Shown here one piece after another: positions 3,885 to 6,014 of a stretch of 64,000 nucleotides of DNA. Location: positions 192,001 to 256,000 of the forward strand of contig CBDBZY010000016.1 in assembly GCA_965213685.1 (NCBI GenBank), given 5' to 3'. Source of the stretch: a bacterium (GTDB lineage Bacteria; UBA8248). The stretch's first letter is position 1; each line of letters begins with the position of its first letter. The position numbers were made by a program, and so were the translations under genes. The notes beneath the pieces were generated by a model. The model was not told the DNA's origin, made no database searches, and saw only the letters and a program-made list of their open reading frames with translations.

Positions 3885-6014
3885 ATGGCTGCCTCTGGAG
3901 CCACAGCTGAGGATGTTAGTGCCTCCTCCCTCACCCCTCGAGACCTCACCCTCCCTGGTAGGTCCCTCCCTCCTGCCATGCCCCTCATCATCTCCACCCA
4001 AGACAGCTGGGACCCTCACAGCTGCAAGCTGGAGACTCACCAGCACAACAGCCAACCACAATACCTACAGCTAGTCACAGACACTCTACAACTGCTGGGA
4101 ACCATCAACAAGCCTGTGGCTATCCTGTCCATCTGTGGCCCCTACCGCTCGGGGAAGTCCTACTTCATCTCCCGACTGCTGGGCAGGCCTGGGGCCTTTC
4201 AGCTGGGCCACAGGATGCAAGCCTGTACACGTGGAATCTGGATGGCCACCACTGTCCTGGAGTGTGAGCAGTTTGCCATAATCCTGCTGGACACGGAAGG
4301 CATTGATGCCATTGGAGCCTCCGAGACCATGGCCATGAGCTTGCTGACTGTCACCACACTCCTCAGCTCCTACCTCATCTACAACTCCATGAAGGTGCCC
4401 CAGAAGGTGGACCTGGACAAGATGAGGTGCTTCACCCAGCTCTCCAGGTCTCTGCTCGTGCAGAAAGGGGAGTCCATGAGGGCAGAGGTCATGAGGAAGT
4501 TCTTCCCTCACTTTCTGTGGCTACTGCGAGATGTGACACTGAAAGTGACAGACAGAGCCGGCCAGATCATCTCAGCCACTGAGTTCCTGCACACTCGTGT
4601 GCTGGCATCACAATCTGGCCACCCTACAGAGCTGGGCAAGTCTCTTTGCAGCCTCTTCCCCTCACTGGAATGCCACACTCTTCCCATGCCAAGCATCAAC
4701 CCCAAAGTCATCAAGAACATTGTGGAGCAACAGGACAAGCTGAAACCAGCATTCAACAAGGCAGTGGATCAACTGATCCAGCGAATCCTGCAGCAAGTCA
4801 CGCCCAAGAAAGCCATTGATGGAGTGAGTGTGGTGGATGGCCCAGCTCTAGCTGCTCTGACCCGTGGCTATGTGGATGCCATCAACACACCAGGAGCAAT
4901 ACCAGACCTGGAACAAGGCTGGCAGGCCGTCATCAAGTGGAAACTGAAGGAACTGTCAGACAAGCTAGTGGAGGAGTATAGGAGAGAGATGGAGGAATGT
5001 GTAGGAGAAAATCTTCCCATGGAGGAGAGGAATCTGATGAGAATCCATGAACAGACACTGAGCAGGAAAAGGGAGTCACTGCAGCAGGAGATCCGTCGAC
5101 TCAAGCCATTGAGTTCCACCTCTGGAGACAAAGACCCAGTCCTGAGTCAACTGGAGCAGGCAATCAGTCAGACAAACGAGGGGGGTGAGGTGATTGGGGG
5201 GGTCCTGTTCCAGTTCACCACTCACAACTACTCCAAGTCCAAGCAGCAGTGTGAAGAGGTGCTGATGGAAGCAGTGAAGAGCAGTGGAATTCACAAGAAG
5301 TGTCAGGAAGCCTTCATCAACTCACAGCCACTGGACATAATGGCAGAGATACAGGAGATTGACCGGCAATACCACAGGCAAGCTGTCGGACCAGCAGCCA
5401 GTGAAGTGCTGGAGAAAGGCCACAGAGAACTGAACCAACTGGGAGACTCACTCAAGAGAATTCCTGGCCCACCTCGTGAGGTGAGGGACATTGGACGAGG
5501 ATCTGATCGAGTGAAGCTGAGCTGGCAACCTCCAGAGAAGAACCCTGAGGCTGCTGAGAGCTATGTGGTGTGGAAACAAGAGGAGGGGAAGCAGTGGGAG
5601 AGGGTGAGGGAGACAAAGAAGACCAAAACCCTCATCACTGGACTGAAGTCAGACACAGGCTACCAGTTCAGAGTCACAGCCACTAATGACCTGATTAAGA
5701 GTGTGGATACAACACAGGACTCATGGACAATGGAGTCAAAAGCTAAGATGGGAGCTCTTGCTGGTGGTTTTGGAGCACTTGGATTTGCATTGTCCCCAGT
5801 TTTAGGTTATCAGGCTATAACTGATGGAGACATGAGTACAAGAAAAGTAGTAGCCATAGCAGTCGCCACTGCACCAATCAGCCTCATATGTGCTCCAGTT
5901 ACTGCAACTGTGGGTGCAGTTTGGACTGCTAGGGAAATGATCAAGGACGGATGCTACAGTGGAGACCTGTCCCCAGAGAGTGATGATGAGACGTCATGTG
6001 ACTCCACAGAATGA
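3885..6014 (+). CDS. GBP/atlastin-family GTPase-FN3-hydrophobic hairpin protein, copy G1 (N-terminal type A)
   Basis: G1 motif GPYRSGKS, G2 TRGIWM, G3 DTEG and LLRD; FN3 pattern PGPP..VKLSWQPP..Y.V..ITGLKSDTGYQFRVTATN; two hydrophobic segments; single exon; first ATG at 3885. Confidence 0.92.
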   Translation: MAASGATAEDVSASSLTPRDLTLPGRSLPPAMPLIISTQDSWDPHSCKLETHQHNSQPQYLQLVTDTLQLLGTINKPVAILSICGPYRSGKSYFISRLLGRPGAFQLGHRMQACTRGIWMATTVLECEQFAIILLDTEGIDAIGASETMAMSLLTVTTLLSSYLIYNSMKVPQKVDLDKMRCFTQLSRSLLVQKGESMRAEVMRKFFPHFLWLLRDVTLKVTDRAGQIISATEFLHTRVLASQSGHPTELGKSLCSLFPSLECHTLPMPSINPKVIKNIVEQQDKLKPAFNKAVDQLIQRILQQVTPKKAIDGVSVVDGPALAALTRGYVDAINTPGAIPDLEQGWQAVIKWKLKELSDKLVEEYRREMEECVGENLPMEERNLMRIHEQTLSRKRESLQQEIRRLKPLSSTSGDKDPVLSQLEQAISQTNEGGEVIGGVLFQFTTHNYSKSKQQCEEVLMEAVKSSGIHKKCQEAFINSQPLDIMAEIQEIDRQYHRQAVGPAASEVLEKGHRELNQLGDSLKRIPGPPREVRDIGRGSDRVKLSWQPPEKNPEAAESYVVWKQEEGKQWERVRETKKTKTLITGLKSDTGYQFRVTATNDLIKSVDTTQDSWTMESKAKMGALAGGFGALGFALSPVLGYQAITDGDMSTRKVVAIAVATAPISLICAPVTATVGAVWTAREMIKDGCYSGDLSPESDDETSCDSTE

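What the first reader, a model, noticed from the sequence alone, without database searches (positions are those of the whole stretch)
5461..5960. Variation is concentrated in FN3 positions and the hairpin while the GTPase is homogenised
Seen across G1-G8: the first ~530 aa differ mostly at scattered sites, but the FN3 start reads REVRDIGRGSDR / SEVEVIGRGPDR / HEVEVIGWGPDQ / RKVEVIGRGSDQ / SEVEVIGKAPDR / RWIKVIGSGPDR / REVRNIGRGSDR / REVRSIGWGPDR. KSxxxY is DTG, GTK, DTD, KTD or ETD. The post-FN3 segment (DTTQDSWTME, TITQDSQTLW, ATTQDLQTEE, ATTQNSYTRE), the first hydrophobic segment and the loop differ radically, including indels, while the intervening framework (VKLSWQPP, APISLIC, GDLSPE) is almost invariant. 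Inference: diversifying selection on a recognition surface within a conserved scaffold, as in immune receptors.
Basis: partly seen in the sequence, partly recalled or inferred. Interest (0 to 1): 0.85.

Follow-up and report, generated by a model that had tools for sequence, protein, structure and literature searches.

The report
Hypervariable membrane anchor on sponge GBP-like GTPases
A tandem array of animal (probably sponge) genes encodes GBP-like GTPases whose enzyme part is kept nearly uniform while a few surface positions of a small FN3 domain and the adjoining membrane anchor change faster than silent sites, the mark of selection for diversity.

Summary
The window is low-coding eukaryotic DNA, probably from a sponge host, binned with a 65% GC bacterium. 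It holds 8 of at least 23 intact, intronless, same-strand paralogs. Each encodes a GBP-type GTPase, a helical domain, an FN3 domain, two hydrophobic helices and an acidic tail.

- **N-terminal part (aa 15-524):** dN/dS is 0.32-0.37, and 81 of 101 variable residues have only two states.
this is FN3 strand G. dS is at background (0.081) and dN is 0.353, so ω = 4.4 (CI 2.6-11.3).
- **Loop between the hydrophobic helices:** ω = 3.1 (CI 1.6-6.5).
- **Strand A, the first hydrophobic helix and the juxtamembrane stretch:** dS is raised about 3-4 fold and regional ω is not significantly above 1. Part of their diversity is therefore simply older.
- **Flanks:** the variable islands lie between an invariant tail plus 3' UTR and an invariant FN3 core, so "less conversion at the 3' end" fails.
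- **Gene conversion:** it is pervasive across the whole gene.
- **Position on the fold:** the CDR-like BC and FG loops are invariant. Variation sits on edge strands A and G, the EF turn and the anchor.

Diversifying selection is supported. An immune-recognition role remains an inference. No description of this architecture turned up in six literature searches and one review.

The parts
3885..6014 (+). G1, 709 aa: GBP-type GTPase, helical domain, FN3, two hydrophobic helices, acidic tail
   Evidence: ORF. Pfam GBP 6.9e-39, GBP_C 3.7e-10, fn3 2.3e-9. PDB GBP2/GBP1/GBP5 about 1e-30. AF2 model and Foldseek hits to GBP5/GBP1.
12081..14288 (+). G2 paralog (735 aa from the first ATG; the MAKKQEVP start is possible)
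23017..25149 (+). G3 paralog, 710 aa
30505..32631 (+). G4 paralog, 708 aa
39277..41484 (+). G5 paralog, 735 aa
43981..46068 (+). G6 paralog, 695 aa; the tail is cut after GDLSPE and the rest of the tail reads on out of frame
52848..55007 (+). G7 paralog, 719 aa
56544..58895 (+). G8 paralog (783 aa from the first ATG; the likely start is the later MAQNPDSP)
4065..4802 (+). G1 GTPase domain (aa 61-306). P-loop GPYRSGKS, DTEG and LLRD are invariant in 23 of 23 copies
   Evidence: omega 0.32
4815..5456 (+). G1 helical domain (aa 311-524)
   Evidence: AF2 helices; omega 0.37
5457..5735 (+). G1 FN3 domain (aa 525-617), seven strands A-G, pLDDT above 90 up to about aa 610, then 87-84
5475..5498 (+). 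FN3 strand A (aa 531-538); multi-state sites 531, 534, 535, 538
   Evidence: dS 0.19, dN 0.29, omega 1.55 (not significant); M2a sites 531, 534, 535, 538
5640..5660 (+). EF turn and start of strand F (aa 586-592); sites 590 and 592 have 5 and 7 residue types
5709..5735 (+). Alternate residues 612, 614 and 616 have 7-9 residue types
   Evidence: dS 0.081, dN 0.353, omega 4.36 (CI 2.57-11.25)
5748..5801 (+). First hydrophobic helix (aa 622-639), Gly/Ala-rich, hypervariable but hydrophobic in every copy
   Evidence: dS 0.278, dN 0.350, omega 1.26 (not significant); mean Kyte-Doolittle 0.89-1.83 in 23 of 23
5802..5843 (+). Polar loop between the two hydrophobic helices (aa 640-653), with indels and net charge -3 to +2
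   Evidence: dS 0.186, dN 0.577, omega 3.11 (CI 1.64-6.52)
5844..5930 (+). Second hydrophobic helix (aa 654-682), conserved APISLICAPV core; P664 and P671 are conserved across the family
5931..5960 (+). Juxtamembrane stretch after helix 2 (aa 683-692), multi-state sites 684, 685, 688, 689, 691, 692
   Evidence: regional omega 0.99 in the 8 window genes
5961..6011 (+). Acidic Ser-rich tail GDLSPESDDETSCDSTE, nearly invariant, followed by about 100-130 nt of conserved 3' UTR
2012..2332 (+). Orphan, diverged 3' cassette (FN3 strand F to tail) with no GTPase part, about 1.5 kb upstream of G1
   Evidence: 75-80% nt identity to intact genes over about 310-326 nt; a shorter 143-nt stretch is 86% identical to c373
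21095..21415 (+). Second copy of the same orphan cassette, upstream of G3

Best explanation
The window is part of a 200-kb tandem array in an animal genome, probably a sponge. The array holds at least 23 intact and about 8 broken copies, all on one strand and all without introns. Each gene encodes a membrane-anchored GBP-like large GTPase.

The predicted layout is a cytosolic GTPase and helical stalk, then an FN3 domain whose last strand runs straight into a two-helix membrane hairpin, then a short acidic cytosolic tail.

Frequent gene conversion or unequal exchange keeps the whole coding region plus about 110 nt of 3' UTR a shuffled, nearly uniform mosaic. Against that background, positive diversifying selection holds many different residues at a limited set of positions:
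- the exposed residues of FN3 edge strands A and G;
- the EF turn;
- one side of the first hydrophobic helix;
- the loop between the helices;
- the stretch just after the second helix.

Together these form the membrane-proximal and membrane-embedded end of the protein. The catalytic engine and the BC and FG loops at the far end of FN3 are conserved.

Shown: the architecture, the array, the conversion, and omega above 1 for strand G and the loop.

Inferred: the topology, and that the variable sites form one membrane-proximal collar. Also inferred, at about 40%, is that each paralog's variable module sets which membrane-associated microbial target or antagonist it meets, as in other arrays of immune GTPases.
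For: **Architecture.** Pfam GBP, GBP_C and fn3 all score above their cut-offs. PDB matches are GBP2/1/5 at about 1e-30 against atlastin at 1e-8. Foldseek gives GBP5/GBP1 at 1e-22 to 1e-20. The GTPase motifs are invariant in 23 of 23 copies.

**Array.** There are 52 matches in the own genome, nearly all on C16:177-377 kb on the + strand.

**Conversion.** PHI p<0.001. Minimum recombination events are at least 44 (N part) and at least 30 (C part). Partition trees disagree.

**Selection, pairwise and so robust to recombination.**
- GTPase omega 0.32; helical domain 0.37.
- Strand G omega 4.36 (CI 2.57-11.25) with dS 0.081, against 0.064-0.076 in the N part.
- Loop omega 3.11 (CI 1.64-6.52).
- The 8 window genes alone give strand G 4.70 and loop 2.40.

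**Selection, site models.** 2dlnL is 55, 127 and 98 in the three C partitions, against 10, 12 and 18 in the N controls. M0 omega is 0.85, 2.94 and 1.82 against 0.22-0.45.

**Not decay.** The first helix stays hydrophobic in 23 of 23 copies. The variable islands are flanked by the invariant tail and by a 3' UTR stretch with 4.6% divergence.

**Same gradient elsewhere, at protein level.** It appears in 5 of 5 informative paralog groups from other assemblies.

**Structure.** The FN3 is modelled with pLDDT above 90 up to about aa 610, and strand G is 609-614. Residues 612, 614 and 616 alternate with invariant 613 and 615.
Against: - Regional omega is not significantly above 1 for strand A (1.55) or the first helix (1.26) over 23 copies, nor for aa 683-692 (0.99) in the 8 window genes (the 23-copy value was not obtained because the script stopped first). 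dS is 3-4 times background there, so reduced homogenisation or old lineages explain part of that diversity.
- Recombination inflates site-model tests. The N-part controls also reject M1a (p = 0.007 to 0.0001).
- The site-model code is my own, with branch lengths fixed up to one scale factor.
- No model coordinates were available, so 'one face' rests on secondary structure plus recalled FN3 topology. Periodicity tests were marginal (p = 0.04-0.11).
- The hairpin is modelled with only pLDDT 50-79.
- The BC and FG loops, the usual FN3 and Ig binding loops, are invariant.
- There is no evidence on expression, localisation, ligand or immune induction.
Confidence: 0.68

Rival explanations
1. Positive selection is real, but it serves cell-biological specialisation and not recognition of microbes. 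The variable FN3 edge and hairpin would sort paralogs to different organelle membranes, or set which paralogs pair with which, as for membrane-shaping or fusion GTPases of the atlastin type.
For: - The C-terminal two-helix anchor resembles the atlastin layout. Atlastin and RNF112 are the next-best structural matches.
- The variable sites sit at the membrane end of the protein, not at the far BC and FG loops.
- The Gly/Ala-rich first helix has conserved small residues that could pack against the conserved second helix.
Against: - Housekeeping membrane GTPases are usually few and conserved. Twenty-three near-identical engines with 5-11 residue types per variable site, plus about 8 dead copies, is a birth-and-death pattern.
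- Sequence is far closer to GBPs than to atlastins: 1e-32 against 1e-8, and RHD3_GTPase scores 15 bits against a 42.4-bit cut-off.
Confidence: 0.22
2. There is no adaptive diversification. The 3' part is under relaxed constraint and escapes gene conversion, so old neutral differences pile up there.
For: - dS is raised 3-4 fold in strand A, the first helix and the loop (0.19-0.28 against about 0.065).
- Regional omega there is near 1 for the first helix (1.26) and the juxtamembrane stretch (0.99).
- In the closest gene pairs the C part is more alike than the N part (for example c178-G7: 4 against 30 differing codons). So conversion reshuffles the N part more.
Against: - Strand G has background dS (0.081) but dN 0.353; the CI for omega excludes 1. 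The loop CI also excludes 1.
- Relaxation cannot push omega above 1.
- The tail and 3' UTR beyond the variable islands are homogenised, and the FN3 core between the islands is invariant.
- Hydrophobicity of the first helix is retained in 23 of 23 copies.
- Kappa falls from 3.0-6.9 in the N partitions to 1.0 in the G/helix-1/loop partition.
Confidence: 0.07
3. The pattern is an artefact. It could come from misalignment in the indel-rich hairpin, from chimeric assembly of a repeated locus out of a mixed sample, or from population variants collapsed into false paralogs.
For: - The contig comes from a bin that mixes bacterial and host DNA.
- The hairpin alignment contains gaps.
- Other runs hold only 30-58% of the sampled words of the G1 locus.
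Against: - The strongest signal (strand G and FN3 sites 531-540, 590, 592) lies in gap-free columns.
- The 23 copies sit in one 527-kb contig, separated by distinct spacers and four distinct 5' classes.
- Random misalignment would drive omega towards 1 with saturated dS, which is not what is seen.
- Paralog groups in other assemblies show the same gradient.
Confidence: 0.03

Closest known systems
Vertebrate interferon-inducible guanylate-binding proteins (GBP1, GBP2, GBP5)
   Same: Same GTPase family. Pfam GBP scores 134 bits, and the P-loop with Arg (GPYRSGKS), DTEG and the RD motif are present. A helical domain follows. These are the best PDB sequence and fold matches. Like GBPs, the genes lie in tandem clusters.
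   Different: - There is no CaaX box; the protein ends in an acidic tail.
- An FN3 domain and two hydrophobic helices replace the lipid anchor.
- Only the first quarter of the GBP_C profile matches (positions 2-78 of 297).
- About 22-25% identity in fold alignments.
- Interferon control and antimicrobial action are unknown here.
Atlastins / RHD3 / Sey1 (ER-fusion GTPases)
   Same: A GBP-related GTPase, then a helical middle part, then two closely spaced hydrophobic helices near the C terminus. Second tier of PDB and Foldseek matches.
   Different: - Much weaker sequence match (1e-8).
- The RHD3_GTPase profile is below its cut-off (15 against 42.4 bits).
- Atlastins have no FN3 (recalled).
- No amphipathic C-terminal helix is predicted; the tail is acidic with pLDDT under 50.
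- Atlastins are few and conserved, not arrays with hypervariable anchors (recalled).
RNF112 (GBP-like GTPase with membrane segments)
   Same: The truncated RNF112 GTPase is a Foldseek match at 6e-13 to 3e-12.
   Different: RNF112 carries a RING finger and no FN3 (recalled). It is a single-copy gene and not a diversified array (recalled).
Rodent IRG (p47) and other immune dynamin-superfamily GTPases with polymorphic, positively selected target-binding surfaces (recalled, not searched here)
   Same: They work alike in evolutionary terms: tandem birth-and-death arrays, a conserved GTPase engine, and rapid change at a surface that meets pathogen factors.
   Different: A different GTPase family. 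There is no FN3 and no hairpin anchor. Here no pathogen partner is known.
FN3 scaffolds used as binders (natural cytokine-receptor FN3s, engineered monobodies; recalled)
   Same: A conserved beta-sandwich framework with variation confined to a few exposed positions.
   Different: Classical binding uses the BC, DE and FG loops. Here BC (PPxKNPEAAE) and FG (ATNDLIKSV) are invariant, and the variation is on edge strands A and G and the EF turn.

Membership tests
GBP family (dynamin superfamily) | N-terminal large GTPase domain matching Pfam PF02263 above its curated cut-off | tested here: met
   134 bits against a cut-off of 21.1, residues 61-306 on profile positions 4-260 of 264
GBP family (dynamin superfamily) | GBP-type nucleotide motifs: P-loop GxxRxGKS with the internal Arg, switch II DxxG, G4 as (T/L)xRD (motif definitions recalled) | tested here: met
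   GPYRSGKS, LDTEG and LLRD in 23 of 23 copies. G85, G90, K91, S92, D136, T137, G139 and D216 are invariant across 49 family members
GBP family (dynamin superfamily) | C-terminal all-helical domain (Pfam PF02841) | tested here: inconclusive
   40.1 bits against a cut-off of 24.3, but only profile positions 2-78 of 297 match. AF2 predicts helices up to residue 523, and Foldseek aligns 480-530 columns to full-length GBP1/GBP5 with TM 0.3-0.5
GBP family (dynamin superfamily) | C-terminal CaaX prenylation box (GBP1/2/5 subgroup; recalled) | tested here: not met
   Proteins end in ...SCDSTE or are cut at GDLSPE
GBP family (dynamin superfamily) | Induced by infection or interferon, with cell-autonomous antimicrobial action | not testable with these tools
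   No run on record as RNA holds the locus
Atlastin / RHD3 | Atlastin/RHD3-type GTPase domain | tested here: not met
   PF05879 scores 15 bits against a cut-off of 42.4. Atlastin-1 is at E 1e-8 against GBP at 4e-32 in PDB
Atlastin / RHD3 | Two closely spaced membrane helices near the C terminus | tested here: met
   Prediction only. AF2 helices 619-636 and 652-687. Mean hydropathy is 0.89-1.83 and 1.39-1.91 in 23 of 23 copies, with a polar 11-12 residue loop
Atlastin / RHD3 | Amphipathic C-terminal helix after the membrane segments (recalled) | tested here: not met
   The tail is acidic and Ser-rich, pLDDT under 50 for 701-709, with only a 3-residue helical turn predicted
Fibronectin type III domain | Pfam PF00041 above its cut-off and a seven-strand sandwich | tested here: met
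   37.8 bits against a cut-off of 25, residues 529-602. AF2 strands A 531-538, B 542-548, C 559-566, C' 572-577, E 581-585, F 592-600 and G 609-614, with block pLDDT 90-93 up to about aa 610 and 87-84 over strand G
Diversified immune-receptor-like repertoire | Excess of non-synonymous over synonymous change at exposed sites within a conserved scaffold | tested here: met
   Strand G omega 4.36 (CI 2.57-11.25); loop 3.11 (CI 1.64-6.52). M2a against M1a, with N-part controls
Diversified immune-receptor-like repertoire | Variable residues form one contiguous exposed surface | tested here: inconclusive
   Sites fall on strands A and G, the AB and EF turns and the anchor. Adjacency is inferred from recalled FN3 topology. 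No coordinates were obtainable, and periodicity tests gave p = 0.04-0.11
Diversified immune-receptor-like repertoire | Variation in the CDR-equivalent loops (BC, DE, FG) | tested here: not met
   BC loop QPP(E/K)KNPEAAE and FG ATNDLIKSV are essentially invariant in 23 copies
Diversified immune-receptor-like repertoire | Binds non-self ligands or is targeted by microbial antagonists | not testable with these tools
   No data

The most novel reading that the evidence does not exclude
Sponges carry a germline-encoded, conversion-shuffled repertoire of membrane-anchored GBP-like GTPases. A hypervariable FN3 edge plus hairpin module would be the specificity determinant, and the conserved GTPase the effector. 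This would be a receptor-effector fusion used to discriminate or control the many bacteria taken up or housed by sponge cells. If so, diversified cell-autonomous immunity by large GTPases dates back to the earliest animals, and it uses a recognition module not seen in vertebrate GBPs.
Probability: 0.3. Interest if true: 0.85.

Novelty: new variant of a known kind. Interest (0 to 1): 0.62.

Why it matters
GBPs and related large GTPases are central to cell-autonomous immunity in vertebrates and plants. Their role in early-branching animals is an open question; the one review I consulted (passages of PMC9005921) says GBP presence and function in invertebrates is still unclear.

This array gives a concrete, testable case. 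It offers dozens of near-identical GTPase engines that differ almost only in a compact membrane-proximal module, with a statistical signature of selection for diversity. If the module sets target specificity, it would show how an animal without adaptive immunity, living with dense microbial communities, diversifies intracellular recognition.

It also matters practically. About 61% of this 'prokaryotic' genome bin is host DNA that marker-based contamination estimates (3.68%) do not see.

Tried and rejected
- **Expression.** No RNA holder is listed among the 24 runs. I laid four runs whose RNA label is only a guess. Their short contigs cover 3887-5622 in all four runs and a few repeat-like bins elsewhere. 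Because the library type is unknown, this says nothing firm about transcription, and the parts without cover are no evidence.
- **Homodimer of residues 520-709** (complex prediction): no verdict (score 0.00, controls not run). This is no evidence either way.
- **Search of 1.84 billion representatives with residues 520-709**: swamped by giant multi-FN3 proteins. Of 3954 hits, the top 150 are mostly 1000-7600 aa with 6-42 matched stretches, so it gave no family size.
- **DNA of relatives.** The metagenome-contig scan gave 22 loci, the best only a 51%-identical 1.7-kb fragment. Genome contigs gave none. So dN/dS could not be replicated in another species; only protein-level divergence could.
- **ESM Atlas**: best scores 0.77-0.82, below the 0.9 lead level, and no cluster with GBP plus fn3.
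- **Mitochondrial COX1 for host placement**: only the bacterial gene was found.
- **Rfam and tRNA scan**: one tRNA-Thr only.
- **Pfam on intergenic ORFs**: nothing but weak PIH1_CS hits in low-complexity DNA.
- **Earlier findings of this scan**: none.
- **Literature** (passages of PMC9005921): no GBP with FN3 and membrane helices, and no sponge GBP array. Subscription journals and supplements were not searchable.
- **Orphan 3' cassettes as conversion donors.** The diverged cassette is only 75-80% identical to intact genes over its full alignable length of about 310-326 nt, with a shorter 143-nt stretch 86% identical to c373. The other orphans are 100% copies of existing 3' ends. A donor role is neither shown nor excluded.
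- **A splice acceptor in front of the conserved SLTPRDL start.** Rejected: each 5' class has an in-frame ATG directly upstream.
- **** was an empty script.
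Full report
**What the DNA is.** The window is G000:C16:192001-256000. G000 is filed as one prokaryotic genome of 7.97 Mb in 71 contigs, 94% complete with 3.68% contamination. Its contigs fall into two classes. Forty-nine have 61-69% GC and ORF cover that is above 0.9 for most (0.53-0.99 overall; the low values are short contigs). Twenty-two contigs, 4.90 Mb in all and including C16, have under 56% GC (0.33-0.54) and ORF cover of 0-0.77. 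The window itself has microsatellites, a 40-bp minisatellite and one tRNA. C16 carries retrotransposon reverse transcriptase, a vitellogenin-like piece and UDP-glucose dehydrogenase. So the window is eukaryotic, animal-like host DNA binned with a bacterium. Of the 20 rows that hold the G1 locus or part of it, 8 rows from 5 studies are labelled 'sponge metagenome', with shares of 0.30-0.44. A sponge host is therefore likely.

**The genes.** Eight long ORFs, all on the + strand, lie in the window. On the whole contig I found 23 intact full-length copies and about 8 broken or partial ones between 177 and 377 kb, all on the + strand. There is also a decayed copy on C64 and several orphan 3' pieces.

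G1 (709 aa) matches Pfam GBP (6.9e-39), GBP_C (3.7e-10, first quarter of the profile only) and fn3 (2.3e-9). The best solved relatives are GBP2, GBP1 and GBP5 (4e-32 to 6e-30). Atlastins follow at 1e-8. The AF2 model has mean pLDDT 75.6, from a 49-sequence alignment. Its FN3 blocks score 90-93 up to about aa 610, then 87-84 over strand G. Its best fold matches are GBP5 and GBP1, then atlastin-1 and RNF112. The P-loop GPYRSGKS, LDTEG and LLRD are identical in 23 of 23 copies.

After the helical domain come:
- a seven-strand FN3 (A 531-538 ... G 609-614);
- helices 619-636 and 652-687, which are hydrophobic in every copy;
- a polar 11-12-residue loop between those helices;
- an acidic tail, GDLSPESDDETSCDSTE.

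The N terminus is not hydrophobic, and conserved lysines (K619, K621) precede the first helix. From this I infer that the GTPase, FN3 and tail are cytosolic and the short loop is on the far side of the membrane. This topology is predicted and has not been shown.

There are no introns in the coding region. Four unrelated 5' classes each supply their own in-frame ATG 14-40 codons upstream of the shared SLTPRDL.

**Checking the observation.** All quoted strings are correct. The finding's coordinates are G1 residues 526-692. The 'post-FN3 segment' is in fact FN3 strand G; the Pfam match stopped at profile position 71 of 84. Across 23 copies:
- N part: 101 of 503 codons vary, 81 of them with just two residue types (one search shows those with the most even split to be near 50:50), and none has five or more types.
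- C part: 107 of 193 codons vary, 26 have five or more types, and the maximum is 11.

The multi-state sites are 531, 534, 535, 538 (strand A), 590 and 592 (EF turn and start of F), and 612, 614, 616 (strand G, alternating with invariant 613 and 615). Many more lie in the first helix, the loop and residues 681-692. The FN3 core, the BC loop (QPPxKNPEAAE) and the FG loop (ATNDLIKSV) are invariant or nearly so.

**Is it selection?** I used pairwise Nei-Gojobori estimates summed over all 253 pairs, which need no tree and so are not misled by recombination. Codons were bootstrapped.

| Region | dS | dN | omega | 95% CI |
|---|---|---|---|---|
| GTPase | 0.064 | 0.020 | 0.32 | 0.20-0.46 |
| Helical domain | 0.076 | 0.028 | 0.37 | 0.22-0.58 |
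| FN3 whole | - | - | 0.87 | - |
| Strand G | 0.081 | 0.353 | 4.36 | 2.57-11.25 |
| Loop | 0.186 | 0.577 | 3.11 | 1.64-6.52 |
| Second helix | - | - | 1.77 | 0.82-3.85 |
| First helix | 0.278 | 0.350 | 1.26 | not significant |
| Strand A | 0.190 | 0.294 | 1.55 | not significant |

The eight window genes alone give the same picture: the finding's span has omega 1.56 (CI 1.15-2.17), strand G 4.70 and the loop 2.40.

So for strand G the silent rate is at background and the replacement rate is 17 times that of the GTPase. For the first helix and strand A, silent divergence is itself 3-4 times higher. There, part of the diversity reflects older, less homogenised lineages.

I also wrote M0, M1a and M2a codon models, with iqtree topology per partition and branch lengths fixed up to a scale factor.

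| Partition | Codons | 2dlnL (M2a vs M1a) | M0 omega |
|---|---|---|---|
| FN3 A-F | 90 | 55 | 0.85 |
| G + helix 1 + loop | 52 | 127 | 2.94 |
| Helix 2 + tail | 51 | 98 | 1.82 |
| N control 1 | 170 | 9.9 | 0.22 |
| N control 2 | 170 | 12.4 | 0.39 |
| N control 3 | 163 | 18.3 | 0.45 |

The C partitions are and the N controls. Because the controls are also nominally significant, recombination clearly inflates this test. The C-part excess is nevertheless about an order of magnitude larger on fewer codons. Kappa drops from 3.0-6.9 in the N partitions to 1.0 in the G/helix-1/loop partition.

**Gene conversion.** PHI is significant in both halves (p<0.001). The four-gamete minimum is 44 events in the N part and 30 in the C part. 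Trees of four partitions disagree. In the closest gene pairs the C part is often more alike than the N part. Homology between copies starts within about 45 nt of the shared coding start and continues through the stop into about 100-130 nt of 3' UTR at 4.6% divergence. Beyond that the flanks fall into unrelated classes. The hypervariable islands therefore sit inside a homogenised tract and not at its frayed end.

**Not decay.** The first helix keeps a mean hydropathy of 0.89-1.83 in all 23 copies despite its variability. The loop stays polar, with net charge from -3 to +2. Variability along the first helix is weakly periodic (helical moment p = 0.04-0.05). Strand periodicity tests were not significant (p = 0.07-0.49).

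**Where the sites sit.** By secondary structure, the FN3 sites are on strands A and G, the AB turn and the EF turn. In the canonical FN3 fold (recalled), A and G are the neighbouring edge strands of the two sheets, and the AB and EF turns and the end of G lie at the C-terminal pole. Here that pole runs straight into the first membrane helix. Together with residues 622-629 and 681-692, this suggests a variable collar at the cytosolic face of the membrane, plus the loop on the other side. I could not obtain coordinates, so this is inference.

**Other species.** The protein search returned 209 relatives among 8000 scored candidates. By my count, 100 of the 120 listed carry GBP plus fn3. All come from unnamed ENA or Logan assemblies, at 45-66% identity outside this genome. 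In 5 of 5 informative groups paralogs differ little in the GTPase (0.03-0.11) and the FN3 core (0.06-0.17). They differ much more in strand A (0.18-0.60), strand G (0.22-0.48) and helix 1 plus loop (0.34-0.77). A sixth group contained truncated models. Across 49 family members the BC-loop prolines, P671 and the GD of the tail are invariant or nearly so.

**Function.** Nothing here shows what the proteins do. My preferred reading is that each paralog's variable module decides which membrane-associated microbial target or antagonist it meets. It rests on family membership, the birth-and-death array, and the selection signature. The main rival is non-immune specialisation of membrane targeting or pairing. 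I found no description of a GBP with FN3 and membrane helices, or of a sponge GBP array, in six full-text searches. The passages I read of one review (PMC9005921) call invertebrate GBPs still unclear. Supplements and subscription journals were not searchable.

Noticed in passing
whole genome G000 (window = C16:192001-256000): The 'prokaryotic' bin is chimeric. Twenty-two of 71 contigs, 4.90 of 7.97 Mb, have GC under 0.56 and low ORF cover (21 of them 0-0.69; the 2.5-kb C37 0.77) and look like host (animal) DNA. The rest is a bacterium of about 65% GC. Marker-based contamination (3.68%) misses this.
   Followed up: partly
G000:C16:449005-496268 (outside the window): A second tandem family: seven intronless ORFs of about 1360-1500 aa. 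Several show signal-peptide-like starts, and the two scanned give right-handed beta-helix and Chlamydia-PMP-repeat hits.
   Followed up: partly
window 2012-2332 and 21095-21415 (+); also C16:283566-283889: Three copies of an orphan, diverged 3' cassette (FN3 strand F to tail, ending ...ECDWGDLSPESDDEMS*) with no GTPase part, each about 1.5 kb upstream of a class-A gene. It is 75-80% identical to intact genes over about 310-326 nt, with a shorter 143-nt stretch 86% identical to c373. It could be a relic or a conversion donor.
   Followed up: partly
C16:190317-190772, 267705-268335, 319707-320340; window 59128-59280: Further orphan 3' fragments. One is 100% identical over 303 nt to the 3' ends of G2 and c278. 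Others carry internal deletions and frameshifts.
   Followed up: partly
window 55293-55553 (-): An inverted fragment of the N-terminal 88 residues (86% identity, two TAA stops) just after G7. It is the only piece of the family on the minus strand.
   Followed up: no
upstream of each gene, e.g. window 3755-3884, 11950-12080, 43850-43980, 52720-52847: Four unrelated 5' classes (MAASGATAED..., MLSN...MAKKQEVP, MAACGDTVEK..., MAQNPDVP) are joined to the same coding body. G7 and c178 carry a duplicated SLTPR motif at the junction.
   Followed up: partly
window 5961-6011 and the equivalents in the other genes: The tail GDLSPESDDETSCDSTE is nearly invariant within the array, and its GDL(S/T)P..D/E core is kept across species. 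It is Ser-Asp/Glu rich, resembling acidic-cluster or CK2-type motifs (recalled). A conserved Cys690 lies next to the second helix. c288 has the DLSPESD unit duplicated, and G6, c336 and c354 have shortened tails.
   Followed up: no
G000:C64:1589043-1590856: A diverged copy (56-90% identity) split over several reading frames, away from the array; probably a pseudogene.
   Followed up: no
proteins P0040, P0045, P0098 (other assemblies): An insertion of about 22 residues inside the FN3 EF turn, exactly at the position that is hypervariable here. It is either a real insert or an unspliced intron in the gene calls.
   Followed up: no
window 34195-34270 (+): tRNA-Thr (GGT) between G4 and G5. Nearby, 32-34 kb and 46-48 kb have strong GC skew with long TG/CA and CTCT/CCCT microsatellites, and there is a 40-bp minisatellite at 8564-8925.
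   Followed up: no
G000:C16:70876-73158 (+): A 761-aa single-ORF protein with weak Roc/Ras-type GTPase hits, about 105 kb upstream of the array.
   Followed up: no
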